Assembly (NCBI GenBank): GCA_023379025.1
Contig: JAMCTH010000012.1
Span: forward strand, 1-55,501
DNA: 55,501 bases
Source of the DNA: Patescibacteria group bacterium
Lineage (GTDB): Bacteria; Patescibacteriota; Microgenomatia; UBA10105; UBA927
Direction: 5' to 3'
Both the position numbers and the translations under genes were made by a program. The notes below the pieces were generated by a model. The model did no database searches, was not told the DNA's origin, and saw only the letters and a program-made list of their open reading frames with translations. Positions 222-46,325 of this stretch are shown piece by piece (position 1 is the stretch's first letter; the number at the start of each line of letters is the position of its first letter).

Positions 222-235
222 TAACACTAATTAAA

Positions 236-338
236 TATATCAAGAGTGGCGGGGAGTGACCTAGCACGGTGATCCGCCCGGCAACCCTTCGACAAGCTCA
301 GGGTGCCAATACTAGCCCCGGAAACGGGGAGTGATAAG
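236..338 (+). promoter_or_regulatory. SAM-I (S-box) riboswitch aptamer
   Basis: TATC-AAGAG...GGCAACC...GGTGCC...GATA core; P2 GGCGG/CCGCC with kink-turn-like GA; L2 CTAG pairing with J3/4 CTAG; P4 CCCCG-GAAA-CGGGG; lies upstream of metK. Confidence 0.9.
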
Positions 339-357
339 CCGAATCCGGAAAACGCTT

Positions 358-36324: not shown

Positions 36325-36474
36325 AAAAAAGCTCCCCGCCAGTGGTAGCTTACGCTACCCATAACCCTTTCGGATCATGACCTTCGCAGGTGCTCTGAAC
36401 GGAGAGCTTACTCCTGCGAAGGTTTTTCAGCCATGCCCCCGGAATGACCAAAGGGTTTAGGCCTATTAACTTGT
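36325..36474 (-). ncRNA. candidate structured leader RNA/attenuator (RNA-A)
   Basis: nested stems (11-bp perfect plus ~14-bp), GUAA-capped hairpin, competing pairing followed by U6; own promoter TTGCGT-17-TAGAAT. Confidence 0.6.
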
Positions 36475-36984: not shown

Positions 36985-38526
36985 GTGATGGAAGAAGAAT
37001 TTGATTTTACAAAATTGAAGTATGTCCTCTATGCTCGGAAATCCACAGATGATGTAGGAAGGCAACCAAAATCCATAGGTGATCAAATTGCCGAATGCAA
37101 GGAACTCGCAGCGAGAGAAGGACTTCATATTGTCGGTGATCCCCTCACAGAAACAAAATCTGCAAAAAGACCCAATCAACGACCCGTGTTCACACAAATG
37201 ATTAAAGATCTCAAAAAGGGCATCTATGACGGAATACTCTCATGGAACCCGGATCGGTTGGCTAGGAATATGAGAGAGGGCGGAGAAATCATTGACATGA
37301 TTGACGAAGGACAGATTAAGGATTTAAAGTTCGTCACCCATCATTTTTCAAAAGATGCAAACGGGAAAATGCTATTGGGGTTAGCGTTTGTTTTATCAAA
37401 GCAATACTCGGATAACCTTTCCCAAAACGTCAAACGTGGGGTCACTAGGAGACTGTCAGAGGGTAAATCGCCGACGCCGAAACATGGATACATAAAGGAC
37501 TCCGAAAGACTTTACCGACCAGATGGTAAAAACTTTGAACTAATATGTAATATTTGGGAATTAAGAGCAGAAGGAACTTCGTATGAAAACCTTGTAAAGT
37601 ATCTAAACGACAACAACTATGCGAGAACTACTAAACGCGGCAGAAGAATTGCAATTACTGGACAAATGCTTACTGATCTCTTTAAGGATCCATTTTATTA
37701 CGGTATTTTAGTTCAAAAGGATCAAAAAGTAGACTTACGATCTCTTTACAACTTTCAACCTGCAATTACGGAAGAGCTATATAATAAAGTGCAACAGCTC
37801 TCATACAGGAAAATATATTCCTCTAAAAAGCCTACTGCTGCATTTTATCCGCTAAAAAAGATGATAATATGTTCGTTTTGTGGCAGTAATATGTACGTCG
37901 GAGCTTCAACGGGAAGGTATCAGCGATACTTGAATGCAAGGTGCGGAAATGCATCTTGCCGTCGCAAGGACAAATCTATACGAATGAAGATTGTATTTGA
38001 CTTTATATATAAATTATTTGCTAAAGGATTAAACTTTACTGAGAAAGAATACGACAAATACTATGATAGCCTGTCAATGCTAACTGATAAAAAAAGACAA
38101 GAACTTACCATTGAGCTCCACAGCAAGCAGGCTATACTTAAAAAAGTAGATGCAGACCTGAATGAAAGAGCTTTAGGAATCGTAAAATTGAAGAAGGGCT
38201 CAGAGACGTGGAATATCAACGAACGGAAAATAAATAAACTAAGCAACCAAAAAATAGGTCTGCAAACTCAAATAGACAAGTTAAAGGAAAAAAATAGCAA
38301 TCCGGAAGCGGAGCAGCTAAATCTTGAGGATTTCTTGAACCTTTCAAAAAATGCTTCTGTAATAGTCCAATCGGCGAATGCGGTCGTAAAAGATCTAATT
38401 TGCCGAAAAATCTTTTTGAACCTTACTGTTGATAACGAGAAAGTATTGTCCTATCAAGCTAAAGAACCATTCGCTACCCTTCTAAAACAGAGGGGGCTGT
38501 TATCTTGTGCGGACGAGAGGACTTGA
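36985..38526 (+). CDS. large serine recombinase/integrase
   Basis: YARKS catalytic Ser, DRLARN, recombinase domain, CSFCG...C Zn ribbon, coiled coil. Confidence 0.92.
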   Translation: MMEEEFDFTKLKYVLYARKSTDDVGRQPKSIGDQIAECKELAAREGLHIVGDPLTETKSAKRPNQRPVFTQMIKDLKKGIYDGILSWNPDRLARNMREGGEIIDMIDEGQIKDLKFVTHHFSKDANGKMLLGLAFVLSKQYSDNLSQNVKRGVTRRLSEGKSPTPKHGYIKDSERLYRPDGKNFELICNIWELRAEGTSYENLVKYLNDNNYARTTKRGRRIAITGQMLTDLFKDPFYYGILVQKDQKVDLRSLYNFQPAITEELYNKVQQLSYRKIYSSKKPTAAFYPLKKMIICSFCGSNMYVGASTGRYQRYLNARCGNASCRRKDKSIRMKIVFDFIYKLFAKGLNFTEKEYDKYYDSLSMLTDKKRQELTIELHSKQAILKKVDADLNERALGIVKLKKGSETWNINERKINKLSNQKIGLQTQIDKLKEKNSNPEAEQLNLEDFLNLSKNASVIVQSANAVVKDLICRKIFLNLTVDNEKVLSYQAKEPFATLLKQRGLLSCADERT

Positions 38527-44178: not shown

Positions 44179-44250
44179 TTTTATCAATAACCAAATTCAG
44201 CAACTCGTATTGTTCTGTATCTTCACGTAATATTTTATACACACGTTCTG

Positions 44251-44334
44251 TGCCGCAGAGAGGACTCGAACCTCCACGCCGTTACCGGCACACGCTCCTG
44301 AAGCGTGCCTGTATACCAATTTCAGCACTGCGGC
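44251..44334 (-). tRNA. tRNA-Leu(CAG)
   Basis: GCCGCAG/CTGCGGC, CACGC-TT-CAG-GA-GCGTG, variable arm. Confidence 0.95.
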
Positions 44335-44390
44335 GATACATCCGTATTGTAACAGCCTTTTTCATGGCTTTCCATCGCCTAATATACCTA

Positions 44391-44912
44391 ATGAAGTTTG
44401 GATTTCAATACTACCATTTAGTATCATGGGACTATGGCGCGAAGAAAAAATGGACAGAAGAAGATTTACGTCGTGCCACAGCACATGCAAGAAGCATACG
44501 ACAAATTCTTCATGAATTACATCTGGTTGAAGCCGGGGGGAACTACGCACAAGTGCAAAAATATCTTCAATATTATAAAATTGATACGGGTCACCTGAAA
44601 GGAAGAGGCTGGAATAAGGGTTTGAAGGGAATTGGAATGCCGCACATCCCATTACAATCAATACTTGTTACAAAAAGCACATTTCAAAGTTATAAGCTTA
44701 AAAAACGCCTGTTTCATGCCGGAATTAAACAACAAAAGTGCGAAATATGCGGCTGGTCAAAAAAATCATCTGACGGGAGAATTCCTCTTGAATTGGATCA
44801 TATAAATGGTGATCGGACGGATAATACCTTAATAAATCTTCGGGTACTTTGTCCAAACTGCCATAGTTTACAACCAACTCATAGAGGAAAAAACAGACAG
44901 AAACGACTGTGA
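44391..44912 (+). CDS. free-standing HNH endonuclease (start uncertain)
   Basis: CEICG...LELDHINGD.TDN...NLRVLCPNCH. Confidence 0.85.
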   Translation: MKFGFQYYHLVSWDYGAKKKWTEEDLRRATAHARSIRQILHELHLVEAGGNYAQVQKYLQYYKIDTGHLKGRGWNKGLKGIGMPHIPLQSILVTKSTFQSYKLKKRLFHAGIKQQKCEICGWSKKSSDGRIPLELDHINGDRTDNTLINLRVLCPNCHSLQPTHRGKNRQKRL

Positions 44913-44919
44913 TACTGCA

Positions 44920-45005
44920 GGGCGAGTGCTGGAACTGGCAGACAGGCAACACTTAAAATGTTGTGGTGAGAAATCACCGTGTGGGTTCGACTCCCACCCC
45001 GCCCA
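44920..45005 (+). tRNA. tRNA-Leu(TAA)
   Basis: CAACA-CT-TAA-AA-TGTTG, variable arm, GTGGG-TTCGACT-CCCAC. Confidence 0.92.
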
Positions 45006-45091
45006 CTGAACAATTTCTAAAAGAAAGTTTTTGTCTAAACACACGAGTACAATTGCATCGGGTTTATCCGAAAATTTTCTGCAAAGAAGCC

Positions 45092-45438
45092 GGTTCCGCG
45101 AGGTAACTCAATTGGCAGACTACGCACTTTACACTTCGAATTTGGTCGGAGAGTAGTTCAGTTGGTAGAACGCACGGTTTGTACCGAAATCTGGTCGGGG
45201 TGTGGCGCAATTGGCTAGCGCGCATCGTTTGGGACGATGAGGCTGAGAGTTCGAGTCTCTCCACCCCGACCAGTTTCCAGTATGAAGGTTTACTCGGGAT
45301 GTCGCGCTTTGAATATCCCGGGACCGTGAGGTCAGAGGCTCGAGTCCTCCATCCCCGGGTAAATTCCGAGTATAATGGAAGTTTGTCCGGAAGTATCGAA
45401 AGGTGAGGTTCCGGGTTTGTTTACTCGGCCTCCTGAAC
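45092..45438 (+). other. nested degenerate split-tRNA shells around tRNA-Pro
   Basis: tRNA-like 5' halves at 45097-45130 and 45147-45180, 3' halves at 45320-45357 and ~45397-45436, joined by complementary linkers. Confidence 0.6.
45196..45272 (+). tRNA. tRNA-Pro(TGG)
   Basis: CGGGGTG/CACCCCG, CATCG-TT-TGG-GA-CGATG, GAGAG-TTCGAGT-CTCTC, encoded CCA. Confidence 0.95.
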
Positions 45439-45442
45439 ATAT

Positions 45443-45901
45443 ATGAAAAAGCAAATTCCTGTCTGGTTGATTGCCGCAGTCTGCATCGTAGTGCTTCTTG
45501 GGGGCTATACCATTTATCACTATAAAACGCATCCGCTGGGAGCCGCTGCCGTCATACGGAGTCATCGCATTGCACTACTCCTGGCGGTCACGCCGTCGGA
45601 AAAAGACCGGGGGCTCGGGCACCGTGACAGTCTGCCTCCCGACACCGGGATGCTGTTTCCGTTTGACCGAAAAGCGCGGTACCAATTCTGGATGAAAGGC
45701 ATGCGGTTTCCTTTGGATTTTGTCTGGATCGCGGATAAAAAAGTAGCGGATATCACCCAAAACGTCCCGCCTCCGGCCGGCAGCGGGCCGCTTCCCGTCT
45801 ATCAGCCGTCGGTTCCCGTCGATCAGGTGCTCGAGCTCAACGCGGGTTCTGTAGCAAGACTCCATATCGCCGTCGGCGATACAGTCATCTATACATTTTA
45901 A
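45443..45901 (+). CDS. DUF192 family protein
   Basis: RGL..R..L....GMLF.F, FWMK.M.FPLD..WI, VLELNAG. Confidence 0.92.
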   Translation: MKKQIPVWLIAAVCIVVLLGGYTIYHYKTHPLGAAAVIRSHRIALLLAVTPSEKDRGLGHRDSLPPDTGMLFPFDRKARYQFWMKGMRFPLDFVWIADKKVADITQNVPPPAGSGPLPVYQPSVPVDQVLELNAGSVARLHIAVGDTVIYTF

Positions 45902-45998
45902 TCGAGGCTGTAGTCAACGCTGCGCTCTCCGCGGGAATTGTACCGGCAAGCTTCCCCGTAGCAGGGTGTTATGTGGTAGTCAAGCGGAATATCGTCTG

Positions 45999-46070
45999 CG
46001 CCCTCAGGTAGAATCGAACTACCATCTGCTCCTTAGAAGGGAGATGCTCTATCCGTTGAGCTATGAGGGC
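45999..46070 (-). tRNA. tRNA-Arg(TCT)
   Basis: GCCCTCA/TGAGGGC, CT-TCT-AA anticodon loop, GGTAG-TTCGATT-CTACC. Confidence 0.92.
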
Positions 46071-46325
46071 CCAATGCATATTTTACCCCCACTCTACGAA
46101 AAGCGCTACGGCAGGCGGGAGGGGCATGCTCTATCCGATGAAACTATGGGTGACTGACAGAACGAAACTACATGAGAGGAGGACGGTTGTGACACACCGA
46201 GGCGTCTGAGAATATTCTGGGCAGGAGACGCGGATTTTTTTGATCTCCTGTTCGACGAGATACTAATAGATTTTAGCAAGTTGATGGAAGCTTATTAAAC
46301 ACTTGGGGAAAAATTATTTCAAAAA

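What the first reader, a model, noticed from the sequence alone, without database searches (positions are those of the whole stretch)
45092..45438. Russian-doll tRNA: intact tRNA-Pro nested in the anticodon loops of two successive tRNA shells
Seen: inner tRNA-Pro(TGG) at 45196-45272. Shell 1: 5' half CGGAGAG-TA-GTTC-AGTTGGTA-GAAC-G-CACGG-TTT (45147-45180) and 3' half GGGA-CCGTG-AGGTC-AGAGG-CTCGAGT-CCTCC-ATCCCCG (45320-45357). Joined, they give a perfect CACGG/CCGTG stem and a TT-TGG-GA Pro loop, with a mismatched acceptor stem. Shell 2, more decayed: CGCGAGG-TA-ACTC-AATTGGCA-GACT-A-CGCAC-TTT (45097-45130) and AGGTT-CCGGG...CTCGG-CCTCCTG (to ~45436), closed by GTTC/GAAC. Both breaks follow TTT in the anticodon loop. 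The linkers resemble each other and pair across the insert: GTACCGAAATCTGGT with ACCAGTTTCCAGTAT, and ACACTTCGAATTTGGT with GGTAAATTCCGAGTAT, each followed by GAA(G)GTTT...CGG. Decay increases outward. Inference: a small element that carries a tRNA, inserts into a tRNA anticodon loop, replaces the gene it breaks, and has done so twice; alternatively a tRNA-containing intron. I know of no described bacterial equivalent.
Basis: partly seen in the sequence, partly recalled or inferred. Interest (0 to 1): 0.88.

Follow-up and report, generated by a model that had tools for sequence, protein, structure and literature searches.

The report
tRNA genes nested like Russian dolls
An intact proline tRNA gene sits inside the broken halves of two older proline tRNA genes, most likely left by a small selfish DNA element that inserts into tRNA genes and brings its own spare copy.

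Summary
An intact tRNA-Pro(UGG) (45196-45272) lies in the anticodon loop of a second tRNA-Pro, whose halves (45147-45180, 45320-45358) rejoin in silico into a callable tRNA-Pro. A third, heavily decayed shell (45097-45130, ~45399-45437) is only weakly supported. Three read-set assemblies span the locus, so it is not a misassembly.

The shells are dead. No splicing enzymes were found, shell 1 is mutated at invariant tRNA positions, and identity to working relatives falls outward (96, 90, 75%).

The same nesting occurs at other tRNAs of this genome (Val, Arg, probably Ser), in two fully fetched relatives, and at 13 of 31 relatives' tRNA-Pro loci.

Related loci carry an ~80-aa GIY-YIG nuclease ORF directly upstream of the intact tRNA, preceded by a fragment of that same tRNA. 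One metagenome contig (L311) has this ORF inside a cassette with the same kind of arms as the window's.

Best reading: serial invasion by an intron-less homing-type element that carries a spare tRNA; the window holds two ORF-less copies. Homing itself is inferred. My eight literature searches found no description. The closest known system is phage T4 SegB.

The parts
45097..45130 (+). Shell 2, 5' half: a decayed tRNA-Pro-like acceptor strand, D arm and anticodon-stem 5' strand, ending in TTT.
   Evidence: Sequence. Weak profile hit 45100-45127, profile positions 4-31, E 5.5. Cloverleaf with its partner only at ARAGORN -ps85, against 3/400 controls.
45131..45146 (+). 5' arm of the outer cassette (ACACTTCG..TGGT type).
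   Evidence: Sequence. Nearly the same arm precedes the GIY-YIG ORF in metagenome contig L311.
45147..45180 (+). Shell 1, 5' half: tRNA-Pro positions 1-34, of the 'type B' lineage.
   Evidence: 97% over 33 nt to the genome's own tRNA-Pro(CGG). Profile E 4.6e-7. ARAGORN intron mode.
45181..45195 (+). 5' arm (leader) of the inner cassette; it partly pairs with the trailer and extends the acceptor stem across the encoded ACCA.
   Evidence: Duplex -12.5 kcal/mol, p 0.06. The centroid fold shows the helix. A similar sequence lies upstream of the type-A tRNA-Pro in L012.
45196..45272 (+). Intact tRNA-Pro(UGG), 'type A', with encoded CCA; the only layer that looks functional.
   Evidence: ARAGORN. 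Rfam 66 bits. 96% to L010; differs at 1 of 61 positions invariant in 5 relatives.
45273..45319 (+). 3' arm of the inner cassette: a strand pairing with the leader, a GTATGAAGGTTTACTC motif, and a hairpin (CGGGAT..ATCCCG).
   Evidence: The motif CCAGTGTAAAGGTTYACTC plus a hairpin follows tRNA-Pro genes in L003, L014, L031, L041 and L311. One of the two strain SNPs (45279) lies here.
45320..45358 (+). Shell 1, 3' half: tRNA-Pro positions 35-73.
   Evidence: 92% over 38 nt to L033. Profile E 5.1e-5. T54C and A73G at positions invariant in 10 relatives.
45359..45398 (+). 3' arm of the outer cassette: a decayed copy of the same trailer motif.
   Evidence: Sequence resemblance to 45273-45319. Weak pairing with 45131-45146 (-8.7 kcal/mol, p 0.23).
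45399..45437 (+). Shell 2, 3' half: decayed variable loop, T arm and acceptor 3' strand.
   Evidence: 14 nt are identical to positions 43-56 of L020's tRNA-Pro. Profile hit E 58, weak. Joined shell 2 is 75% identical to L020.

Best explanation
WHAT IT IS. This is a DNA-level fossil stack, not a spliced gene. The locus after tRNA-Leu(UAA) once held a tRNA-Pro(UGG). A ~140-bp cassette (5' arm, complete tRNA-Pro, 3' arm with hairpin) was inserted precisely, and in the same orientation, into its anticodon loop. That killed the resident gene, and the cassette supplied a working replacement. Later a second cassette of the same family entered the anticodon loop of the first cassette's tRNA. Only the innermost tRNA works; the outer halves decay.

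WHAT FAMILY IT BELONGS TO. The cassettes belong to a family of tRNA-invading elements that is common in this bacterial class. The complete form carries an ~80-aa GIY-YIG nuclease ORF directly upstream of the spare tRNA. The two cassettes in the window are copies without the ORF.

HOW IT PROBABLY WORKS (inferred). The nuclease breaks the cognate intact tRNA gene, and the break is repaired from an element-bearing copy. No intron is needed because the element brings its own spare. That spare recreates an intact target, so the locus can be invaded again and the nest grows.

SHOWN: the nesting, its precision, the decay, the recurrence, and the association of the ORF with tRNAs.
INFERRED: cleavage, homing, and loss of the ORF.
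For: NESTING AND PRECISION
- ARAGORN intron mode and in-silico joins recover tRNA-Pro from the shell-1 halves. The profile hits cover positions 1-35 and 34-72 with no loss or duplication beyond 1-2 nt.
- Intact type-B tRNA-Pro(UGG) occupies the syntenic site in L018, L033, L037 and L040. Type A occupies it in L010-L012, L015 and L020.

DEAD SHELLS
- Shell 1 differs at 3 of 49 positions invariant in 10 working relatives (G4A, T54C, A73G) and has two broken stem pairs.
- A strain variant still has G4, so the A in the window is derived.
- Identity to the best working relative is 96, 90 and 75% going outward.
- The genome has separate UGG, CGG and GGG tRNA-Pro genes.

NO SPLICING MACHINERY
- No EndA or RtcB was found, and there is no group I intron match.

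RECURRENCE
- Deleting the inner tRNA in silico recovers a shell with the same anticodon, at ARAGORN default, for 3 of 49 tRNAs in this genome (Pro UGG, Arg CCU, Val CAC) and 1 of 45 in G018 (Ile GAU). 0 of 8 shell-free control tRNAs gave any call.
- More decayed or partial cases were read by eye and BLAST: Ser CGA, Arg UCU, Gln CUG and Met in G000; Gln UUG in G018; Tyr, Thr, Ser and Pro in G032.
- tRNA-Pro fragments flank 13 of 31 relatives' tRNA-Pro loci.

LINK TO THE NUCLEASE
- [5' tRNA fragment][GIY-YIG ORF][intact tRNA] occurs at Gln in G000; at Asp, Gly and Val in G018; at Tyr in G032; and at type-A tRNA-Pro in L010, which is 96% identical to the window's inner tRNA.
- 6 of 7 ORF hits in G018 lie within 30 nt of a tRNA.
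- In 30 loci sampled across the class there were 33 ORF hits. 18 have a same-strand tRNA within 120 nt downstream, and 8 of those 18 have an exact 5' fragment (12 nt or more) of that tRNA upstream of the ORF.
- Contig L311 shows [5' shell remnant][arm like 45131-45146][GIY-YIG ORF][type-A tRNA-Pro][same trailer motif and hairpin][3' shell], with the trailer and 3' shell then repeated.
- In G000 itself the tRNA-Pro(GGG) carries the same trailer and is preceded by a GIY-YIG gene broken by one TGA.
- All four ORFs tested are a GIY-YIG catalytic domain and nothing else.
Against: - The window's own cassettes contain no ORF. Their descent from ORF-bearing elements rests on arm and trailer similarity to one metagenome contig (L311) and to the Pro(GGG) locus.
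- No cleavage or homing has been shown for these ~80-aa proteins. They lack any DNA-binding domain, so sequence-specific homing is not a given.
- The usual ORF-bearing form breaks the tRNA in the D arm (about positions 13-26) and leaves only a 5' fragment. That differs from the anticodon-loop, two-sided nest in the window.
- The arms are complementary to each other but differ in sequence between cassettes. Homing does not explain this.
- The arm pairing in the window itself is weak (p 0.06).
- 11 of 33 sampled ORF hits had no tRNA within 120 nt on either side.
- Shell 2 is statistically weak.
- The relatives' loci were chosen as the best matches to a query that included the nest, so 13 of 31 may overstate the frequency. 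Related genomes are also not independent samples.
Confidence: 0.6

Rival explanations
1. A hairpin-armed, REPIN-like cassette. The inverted arms plus the tRNA form a non-autonomous palindromic element. A single-strand (HUH/Y1, RAYT-like) transposase moves it in trans and inserts it into single-stranded loops of the folded tRNA gene. The GIY-YIG ORFs would be passengers or a separate phenomenon.
For: - G000 has 6 Y1_Tnp matches. Five are ~200-226-aa RAYT-like genes, each flanked by its own palindromes.
- Insertions sit mostly in D, anticodon and T loops and have no target duplication.
- The arms are inverted repeats. Hairpin-only copies of the same arms exist (D loop of the L036/L023 shells, and L045).
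- One RAYT-like gene follows a tRNA-Asn that has a 12-bp leader/trailer helix.
Against: - By inspection, the arms do not resemble the palindromes that flank any of the five RAYT-like genes.
- The arms are low-copy in G000: nothing beyond the two tRNA-Pro loci for the window's arms, and two copies of the CCTGCCCGC hairpin.
- Arm sequences differ between cassettes, which is unlike a transposase binding site.
- Some insertions lie in stems (Arg CCU at 23/24; Ser CGA in the anticodon stem).
- Every insert lands in its own cognate tRNA.
Confidence: 0.15
2. In-place duplication with no mobile element. Unequal or misaligned recombination, or template switching, among tRNA-Pro copies at the locus produced the extra halves, which then diverged.
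For: - Once a single nest exists, unequal exchange between shell and inner copies could add layers (my reasoning, not tested).
- In L029 the shell halves are 100% identical to the inner tRNA over 28 and 39 nt.
- Tandem repeats of the 3' shell occur in L031, L032 and L311.
Against: - In the window, inner tRNA and shell 1 share only 56 of 74 positions. Each is closer to working genes of other genomes (96% and 90%).
- Both lineages occur alone at the syntenic site elsewhere, which points to replacement by a foreign type.
- This route does not produce a first nest with precise junctions, and it does not explain the shared arms or the adjacent nuclease ORFs.
Confidence: 0.1
3. An RNA-level intron. 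The insert is removed from the transcript and the shell halves are ligated, so that one gene yields two or three tRNAs.
For: - The shell-1 anticodon stem is intact and pairs across the insert in the centroid fold.
- The insertions sit at loop positions, like archaeal non-canonical tRNA introns (a comparison recalled from general knowledge and from the abstract of PMC4090602 listed).
Against: - No EndA and no RtcB were found in this 95%-complete genome.
- There is no group I intron match.
- Shell 1 is mutated at T54, at the A73 discriminator and in two stem pairs.
- The shells are redundant with intact genes.
- Shells in relatives have lost whole arms.
Confidence: 0.04
4. Independent tandem pseudo-tRNAs, or chance. 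For example, 45295-45357 could be one decayed tRNA with CGGGATG/CATCCC ends and the upstream half could be unrelated. Alternatively, an assembly chimera.
For: - CGGGATG at 45295 can pair with 6 of 7 bases of the 3' acceptor strand (read).
- At relaxed thresholds ARAGORN offers other odd folds in the region.
Against: - The two halves match complementary, abutting parts (1-35 and 34-72) of one tRNA-Pro type, with E 4.6e-7 and 5.1e-5.
- 45295-45318 lacks D and anticodon arms, and it is homologous to the trailer hairpin seen in relatives.
- 8 of 8 control tRNAs show no shell.
- Single contigs span the locus in three runs, one from a different sample with 2 SNPs.
Confidence: 0.03

Closest known systems
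Phage T4 SegB, a free-standing GIY-YIG homing endonuclease in the tRNA gene cluster (PMC2330249, abstract read; PMC13096335, abstract, section 10 and three passages read)
   Same: A GIY-YIG nuclease gene lies next to tRNA genes. SegB recognises a site containing the conserved TψC stem-loop motif of tRNA genes. It drives preferential inheritance of itself and of neighbouring tRNA genes, and it can amplify a tRNA segment. segB genes co-localise with tRNAs in many phages.
   Different: SegB is a phage protein described as recognising a 27-bp site; from recall it is longer and has a DNA-binding part. The ORFs here are ~80 aa, catalytic domain only, and chromosomal in a small-genome bacterium. SegB sits between genes and produces tandem repeats. 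It does not produce a tRNA nested inside a broken tRNA, and no 'spare inside the target' architecture is described in the parts I read. The supplementary tables were not visible.
Group I introns in bacterial tRNA anticodon loops (e.g. tRNA-Leu(UAA) of cyanobacteria; recalled, and review PMC3984707 seen only in the listing)
   Same: An insertion in the anticodon loop of a bacterial tRNA gene that can spread by homing and leaves the host viable.
   Different: Those introns restore the gene by self-splicing and need a ribozyme core of about 200 nt or more. Here the insert is 139 nt, 77 nt of it is a tRNA, no ribozyme match was found, and the host gene is abandoned rather than restored.
Archaeal tRNA genes with multiple non-canonical introns, and split tRNAs (PMC4090602, PMC4390854, PMC3978253: listings and abstracts only)
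   Same: Interruptions in D, anticodon and T loops, with the ends of the inserts pairing with each other.
   Different: Those depend on the EndA endonuclease, a ligase and a bulge-helix-bulge motif, and the exons form the working tRNA. Here EndA and RtcB were not found, the organism is bacterial, and the 'exons' are mutated and redundant.
Integrase-mediated insertion of phages and islands into tRNA genes (recalled)
   Same: A mobile element targets a tRNA gene and carries sequence that keeps a working tRNA, leaving a tRNA fragment behind.
   Different: Those carry only the 3' part of the tRNA, leave a direct repeat at the far end of a kilobase-scale element, and encode an integrase. Here a whole tRNA sits between both halves of the old gene, the element is 140 bp, and it has no integrase.
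REPIN/RAYT systems (PMC3116915, PMC3337134: listings and abstracts only)
   Same: Short inverted-repeat elements without coding capacity. RAYT-like genes are present in this genome.
   Different: REPINs are many-copy and have conserved arms matching those that flank the RAYT gene; I know of none with tRNA cargo. Here the arms are low-copy and varied.

Membership tests
Functional bacterial tRNA (inner gene) | Cloverleaf with conserved positions, scoring above the Rfam tRNA gathering threshold | tested here: met
   66 bits against a gathering score of 29. ARAGORN calls tRNA-Pro(tgg). It differs at 1 of 61 positions invariant in 5 relatives.
Protein-spliced (archaeal-type) tRNA intron | Splicing endonuclease (EndA, PF01974) encoded in the genome | tested here: not met
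   0 matches at E<=1 in G000, which is 95% complete. The same search hits 6 of 14 control genomes, 4 of them above the family cut-off.
Protein-spliced (archaeal-type) tRNA intron | RtcB-type ligase encoded in the genome | tested here: not met
   0 matches at E<=0.01 in G000. The same search hits 10 of 14 control genomes. Other ligase families were not searched.
Protein-spliced (archaeal-type) tRNA intron | Bulge-helix-bulge motif at both exon-intron junctions | not tested
   Only looked at by eye in the fold. No dedicated search was run.
Protein-spliced (archaeal-type) tRNA intron | Joined exons make a functional tRNA | tested here: not met
   Joined shell 1 folds but carries G4A, T54C, A73G and two broken stem pairs. 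Shell 2 is not called at normal thresholds.
Group I intron in a tRNA anticodon loop | Group I ribozyme core detectable by covariance model; insert of about 200 nt or more | tested here: not met
   There is no intron family among the window's matches at gathering threshold, and none at E<=10 in 44850-45550. The insert is 139 nt.
Integrase-type tRNA-targeting island | Integrase gene inside the element, and a direct repeat of the tRNA 3' segment only | tested here: not met
   The insert is 139 nt and has no room for a gene. Both 5' and 3' halves flank the insert.
Free-standing GIY-YIG homing endonuclease element (SegB-like) | A GIY-YIG ORF within the inserted element | tested here: not met
   Neither cassette in the window has an ORF. 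The feature is met in related elements: L311, G018 Val(GAC), L010.
Free-standing GIY-YIG homing endonuclease element (SegB-like) | Non-random linkage of the nuclease gene to tRNA genes | tested here: met
   18 of 33 ORF hits in 30 class-wide loci have a same-strand tRNA within 120 nt downstream. 6 of 7 ORF hits in G018 lie within 30 nt of a tRNA.
Free-standing GIY-YIG homing endonuclease element (SegB-like) | The nuclease cleaves the element-free allele and is copied into it | not testable with these tools
   This needs protein biochemistry and a donor/recipient assay.
REPIN/RAYT | RAYT gene present, and cassette arms matching the palindromes that flank it, in many copies | tested here: not met
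   RAYT-like genes are present. By inspection their flanking palindromes do not match the cassette arms. The arms are low-copy.

The most novel reading that the evidence does not exclude
These small-genome bacteria may host a previously undescribed class of intron-less homing element: a catalytic-domain-only GIY-YIG nuclease travelling with a spare tRNA, whole or partial. It would break the cognate tRNA gene and replace it instead of splicing. Because the spare recreates an intact target, the locus can be invaded again and again, building nested 'Russian doll' fossils. The process would drive turnover and horizontal exchange of tRNA genes across the class. The nuclease may recognise folded (hairpin or cloverleaf) DNA rather than a sequence, which would explain why insertions fall mostly in loops.
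Probability: 0.45. Interest if true: 0.85.

Novelty: new variant of a known kind. Interest (0 to 1): 0.8.

Why it matters
- It would show a third way for a selfish element to live inside an essential RNA gene. The known ways are to splice out (introns) or to regenerate the gene's end (integrases). This one carries a complete spare and abandons the host copy.
- It would explain how tRNA genes of different lineages replace one another at a fixed chromosomal site in reduced genomes.
- It gives a readable historical record, because the layers are ordered by age.
- It assigns a testable role to the very common ~80-aa GIY-YIG proteins, found in 130 of 151 genomes sampled in this class.
- Practically, tRNA finders and annotation pipelines miss these shells, or miscall hybrids such as a false 'intron-bearing tRNA-Thr'.

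Tried and rejected
TRIED WITHOUT USEFUL RESULT
No match lay within 150 nt of a tRNA, so most are probably chance. One hit, in a Roizmanbacteria record (L045), is a cargo-free hairpin of the same arm type. That scan says nothing about distribution.
- The viral-contig scan for the type-A tRNA-Pro core found nothing. It was an exact 39-nt pattern, so this is no evidence that phages lack such cassettes.
- RNA evidence: the only RNA run listed (X20) holds the inner tRNA on a contig with different flanks, so it comes from another organism. Nothing can be said about expression or processing of this locus.
- The Rfam tRNA model does not see the half-genes at E<=10.
- ARAGORN intron mode over the whole genome mostly returned hybrids of neighbouring tRNAs. 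The first full deletion-scan census had the same problem, so I counted only calls with the same anticodon as the inner tRNA.
- The deletion scan gave no call for Ser(CGA), Arg(UCU), Asn or Thr(UGU) in G000. Those shells rest on reading the sequence and on BLAST.
- The CCTGCCCGC hairpin has only 2 full copies in G000, so it is not a high-copy repeat.
- The HNH ORF upstream (44250-44912) has homologues in the same position in two relatives. I found no tRNA-Leu fragment beside it and do not link it to the nest.
- Genes between tRNA-Leu and tRNA-Pro in relatives are varied and give no consistent enzyme.
- Two of the four small GIY-YIG genes in G000 (C3:105678 and C11:33519) are of another type and are not next to tRNAs.
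- Eight literature searches found no description of nested bacterial tRNA genes or of tRNA-fragment/GIY-YIG/tRNA units. The library lacks most subscription journals. Supplements, including those of PMC13096335, were not visible.

CONSIDERED AND REJECTED
- Misassembly, rejected.
- An archaeal origin, rejected because the window encodes LytR, UvrA, a bacterial-type TGT and a SAM riboswitch.
Full report
WHAT IS IN THE SEQUENCE

ARAGORN and Rfam agree on an intact tRNA-Pro(UGG) at 45196-45272, with CCA encoded. The same anticodon-stem sequence lies on both sides of it.
- In intron mode at its default threshold, ARAGORN calls one tRNA spanning 45146-45359 with a 139-nt insert.
- Joining the two halves in silico gives tRNA-Pro(TGG) (45180 to 45320) or tRNA-Pro(CGG) (45179 to 45319). 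The halves are therefore real, and the break point is uncertain by one or two bases.
- I built a profile from 33 other tRNA-Pro genes. It hits 45147-45181 as positions 1-35 (E 4.6e-7) and 45319-45357 as positions 34-72 (E 5.1e-5), with the whole window as search space. The two pieces abut without loss or duplication.
- The 5' piece is 97% identical to the 5' half of this genome's own tRNA-Pro(CGG).

The outer shell is much weaker.
- ARAGORN makes no call on joined halves until the threshold is lowered to -ps85. 3 of 400 geometry-matched random joins reach that level too.
- The profile hits have E 5.5 and E 58, though they are correctly placed and ordered.
- 14 nt match a relative's tRNA-Pro exactly.
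- I accept shell 2 as probable, not proven.

IS IT AN ARTEFACT?

One contig covers 44900-45950 in each of three sequencing runs. Two may be the source of the window. The third is another sample of the same study and differs at two bases, 45150 and 45279. Both differences lie in shell or linker, and none lies in the other ~700 bases. At 45150 the variant has G, which restores an acceptor pair and matches working relatives. The A in the window is therefore a derived, damaging change.

ARE THE SHELLS ALIVE?

No.
- Shell 1 differs from 10 working type-B tRNA-Pro(UGG) genes at 3 of 49 positions that never vary among them: G4A, T54C and the A73G discriminator. It also has two broken stem pairs.
- Identity to the best working relative falls from 96% (inner) to 90% (shell 1) to 75% (shell 2).
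- The genome has separate UGG, CGG and GGG tRNA-Pro genes, so the shells are not needed.
- It is a bacterium, encoding LytR, UvrA, TGT and a SAM riboswitch.
- It has no detectable EndA or RtcB at 95% completeness, and no intron family matches.
- The 349-nt RNA fold is only mildly better than shuffles (z -1.96), although the centroid does draw the nested helices.

WHAT RELATIVES SHOW

In related genomes the locus is tRNA-Leu(UAA), tRNA-Pro(UGG), a DUF192 gene, then tRNA-Arg(UCU) and tRNA-Gly(UCC). The tRNA-Pro there is either of the inner type ('A': L010-L012, L015, L020) or of the shell-1 type ('B': L018, L033, L037, L040), as an uninterrupted gene. The window therefore holds a type-A gene inserted precisely into a type-B gene. 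That is replacement by a different lineage, not local duplication followed by drift.

tRNA-Pro fragments flank 13 of 31 relatives' tRNA-Pro loci. Those loci were picked as the best matches to a query that contained the nest, so the fraction may be inflated.

Many shells in relatives carry extra small hairpins in the D loop, at position 26 and in the T loop.

IT IS NOT ONLY PROLINE

- In this genome, tRNA-Val(CAC), tRNA-Arg(CCU) and, by reading the sequence, tRNA-Ser(CGA) each sit inside a broken copy of the same tRNA.
- tRNA-Arg(UCU) in the window has a 5' pseudo-half upstream.
- tRNA-Gln(CUG) and tRNA-Met have partial duplicates.
- I ran a blind test: delete the inner tRNA with variable flanks and ask ARAGORN, at default settings, for a junction-spanning tRNA with the same anticodon. 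It is positive for 3 of 49 tRNAs in G000 and 1 of 45 in the fully fetched relative G018. It is negative for 8 of 8 control tRNAs. It is also negative for the more decayed cases: Ser, Arg(UCU), Asn and Thr.
- G032, from another family of the class, has tRNA fragments beside Tyr, Thr, Ser and Pro genes.

THE NUCLEASE LINK

Beside several of these loci lies an ~80-aa ORF that is a GIY-YIG catalytic domain and nothing else. The recurring layout is [5' fragment of tRNA X, often with hairpins][ORF][intact tRNA X]. It occurs at:
- Gln in G000;
- Asp, Gly(UCC) and Val(GAC) in G018, where Val also keeps part of a 3' shell;
- Tyr in G032;
- type-A tRNA-Pro in L010, which is 96% identical to the window's inner gene.

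In G018, 6 of 7 such ORF hits lie within 30 nt of a tRNA. The family is present in 130 of 151 genomes sampled from the class. The 30 loci fetched contained 33 ORF hits:
- 18 have a same-strand tRNA within 120 nt downstream;
- 8 of those 18 have an exact copy (12 nt or more) of that tRNA's 5' end upstream of the ORF;
- 4 have a tRNA upstream only;
- 11 have no tRNA within 120 nt on either side.

The closest tie to the window is metagenome contig L311. It reads: a 5' shell remnant ending in TTCG; an arm almost identical to 45131-45146; a GIY-YIG ORF; a type-A tRNA-Pro; the same trailer motif and hairpin as 45273-45319; a 3' shell; then the trailer and a 3' shell again.

In G000 itself, tRNA-Pro(GGG) has the same trailer and is preceded by a GIY-YIG gene broken by one TGA. 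Contigs L293, L294 and L297 look like L010 with the ORF gone.

HOW IT MOST LIKELY WORKS

Shown: precise, co-oriented insertion of a tRNA-bearing cassette into the cognate tRNA gene; decay of the outer copies; recurrence across isotypes and genomes; tight linkage of a GIY-YIG ORF to such sites.

Inferred: the nuclease breaks an intact cognate tRNA gene and the break is repaired from an element-bearing copy, with the shell halves serving as homology. The spare tRNA makes the disruption harmless, so no intron is needed. The spare is itself a fresh target, so reinvasion stacks the layers. The two cassettes in the window have lost the ORF or never had it.

Not explained: why the arms on either side of the spare are complementary to each other yet differ in sequence between cassettes, and how a protein with no DNA-binding domain would find its site. 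A structure-specific cut at extruded hairpins or cloverleaves would fit the bias toward loops, but that is speculation.

RIVALS

- A REPIN/RAYT-like single-strand transposition is the most serious rival. Five RAYT-like genes are present, but their palindromes do not match the arms and the arms are low-copy.
- In-place duplication fails on the two-lineage argument.
- RNA splicing and chance are discussed above.

COMPARISON WITH WHAT IS KNOWN

- Phage T4 SegB is a GIY-YIG homing endonuclease that sits among tRNA genes. It recognises the TψC motif of tRNA genes and drives inheritance and amplification of tRNA genes; segB genes co-localise with tRNAs in many phages (PMC2330249, abstract; PMC13096335, abstract, section 10 and three passages). 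What I read describes tandem repeats, not nesting or a spare inside the target, and it concerns phages. Supplements were not visible.
- Group I introns, archaeal tRNA introns and integrase-type islands each fail at least one defining test (see the membership table).
- Eight literature searches found no description of this architecture in bacteria. The library is incomplete, so this is not proof of novelty.

VERDICT

I class it as a new variant of a known kind, an intron-less homing-type element with a spare tRNA. The mechanism is inferred, not shown.

Noticed in passing
window 46110-46152 (- strand): A 5' pseudo-half of tRNA-Arg(UCU), running to the anticodon loop and followed by CCGCCTGCC, lies about 40 nt upstream of the intact tRNA-Arg(UCU) at 45998-46070. 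I saw no 3' half, and the deletion scan gave no call.
   Followed up: partly
window 44250-44912 (+); the true start is probably near 44364-44391: An HNH endonuclease ORF ends 7 nt before tRNA-Leu(UAA). Homologues sit in the same position in L027 and L040, and the L040 copy looks frameshifted. The layout resembles the GIY-YIG/tRNA units, but I found no tRNA-Leu fragment beside it.
   Followed up: partly
G000 C6:16974-17156 (-); C4 about 86784-86975 (-); C9 around 127032-127118 (-): tRNA-Val(CAC), tRNA-Arg(CCU) and tRNA-Ser(CGA) are each nested in a broken copy of the same tRNA. Their arms are of the CCTGCC../..GGCAGG or CGTAC../..TACGGGG types, and the break points are at position 38, at 23/24 and in the anticodon stem.
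   Followed up: partly
G000 C1:19232, C8:7152, C7:53608, C9:114858, C4:110907: There are five RAYT-like (Y1 transposase) genes of about 200-226 aa in a 1.1-Mb genome. Each is flanked by its own palindrome. One lies directly after a tRNA-Asn that has a 12-bp leader/trailer helix.
   Followed up: partly
shells in L014, L030, L031, L032, L010, L036, L023; G018 Gly and Val loci: Small GC-rich hairpins (e.g. TCCCGC-GAA-GCGGGA, TCCGCC-AGNN-GGCGGA) are inserted at the same D-loop, position-26 and T-loop (after TT) sites of dead tRNA shells in different genera. The stem sequences differ but remain complementary.
   Followed up: no
window 36344-36463 (-) and 234-340 (+): A LOOT RNA match (92.6 bits) and a SAM riboswitch match (51.1 bits).
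   Followed up: no
window 36985-38526 (+): A large serine recombinase ORF (513 aa) whose end overlaps tRNA-Leu(GAG) on the opposite strand, at the edge of a tRNA cluster.
   Followed up: no
G000 C4:55874-56466: A tight array of five tRNA calls (Asn, Trp, Glu, one with an odd two-base anticodon call, and Pro(UGG)). Several duplicate tRNAs found elsewhere in the genome, so the array may be foreign.
   Followed up: no
G018 C1:37114-37187 (-), also L024 and L309: ARAGORN labels a tRNA here as 'Pyl(cta)', at the place where G000 has tRNA-Arg(UCU). This is probably a register ambiguity in the anticodon loop. I did not check it.
   Followed up: no
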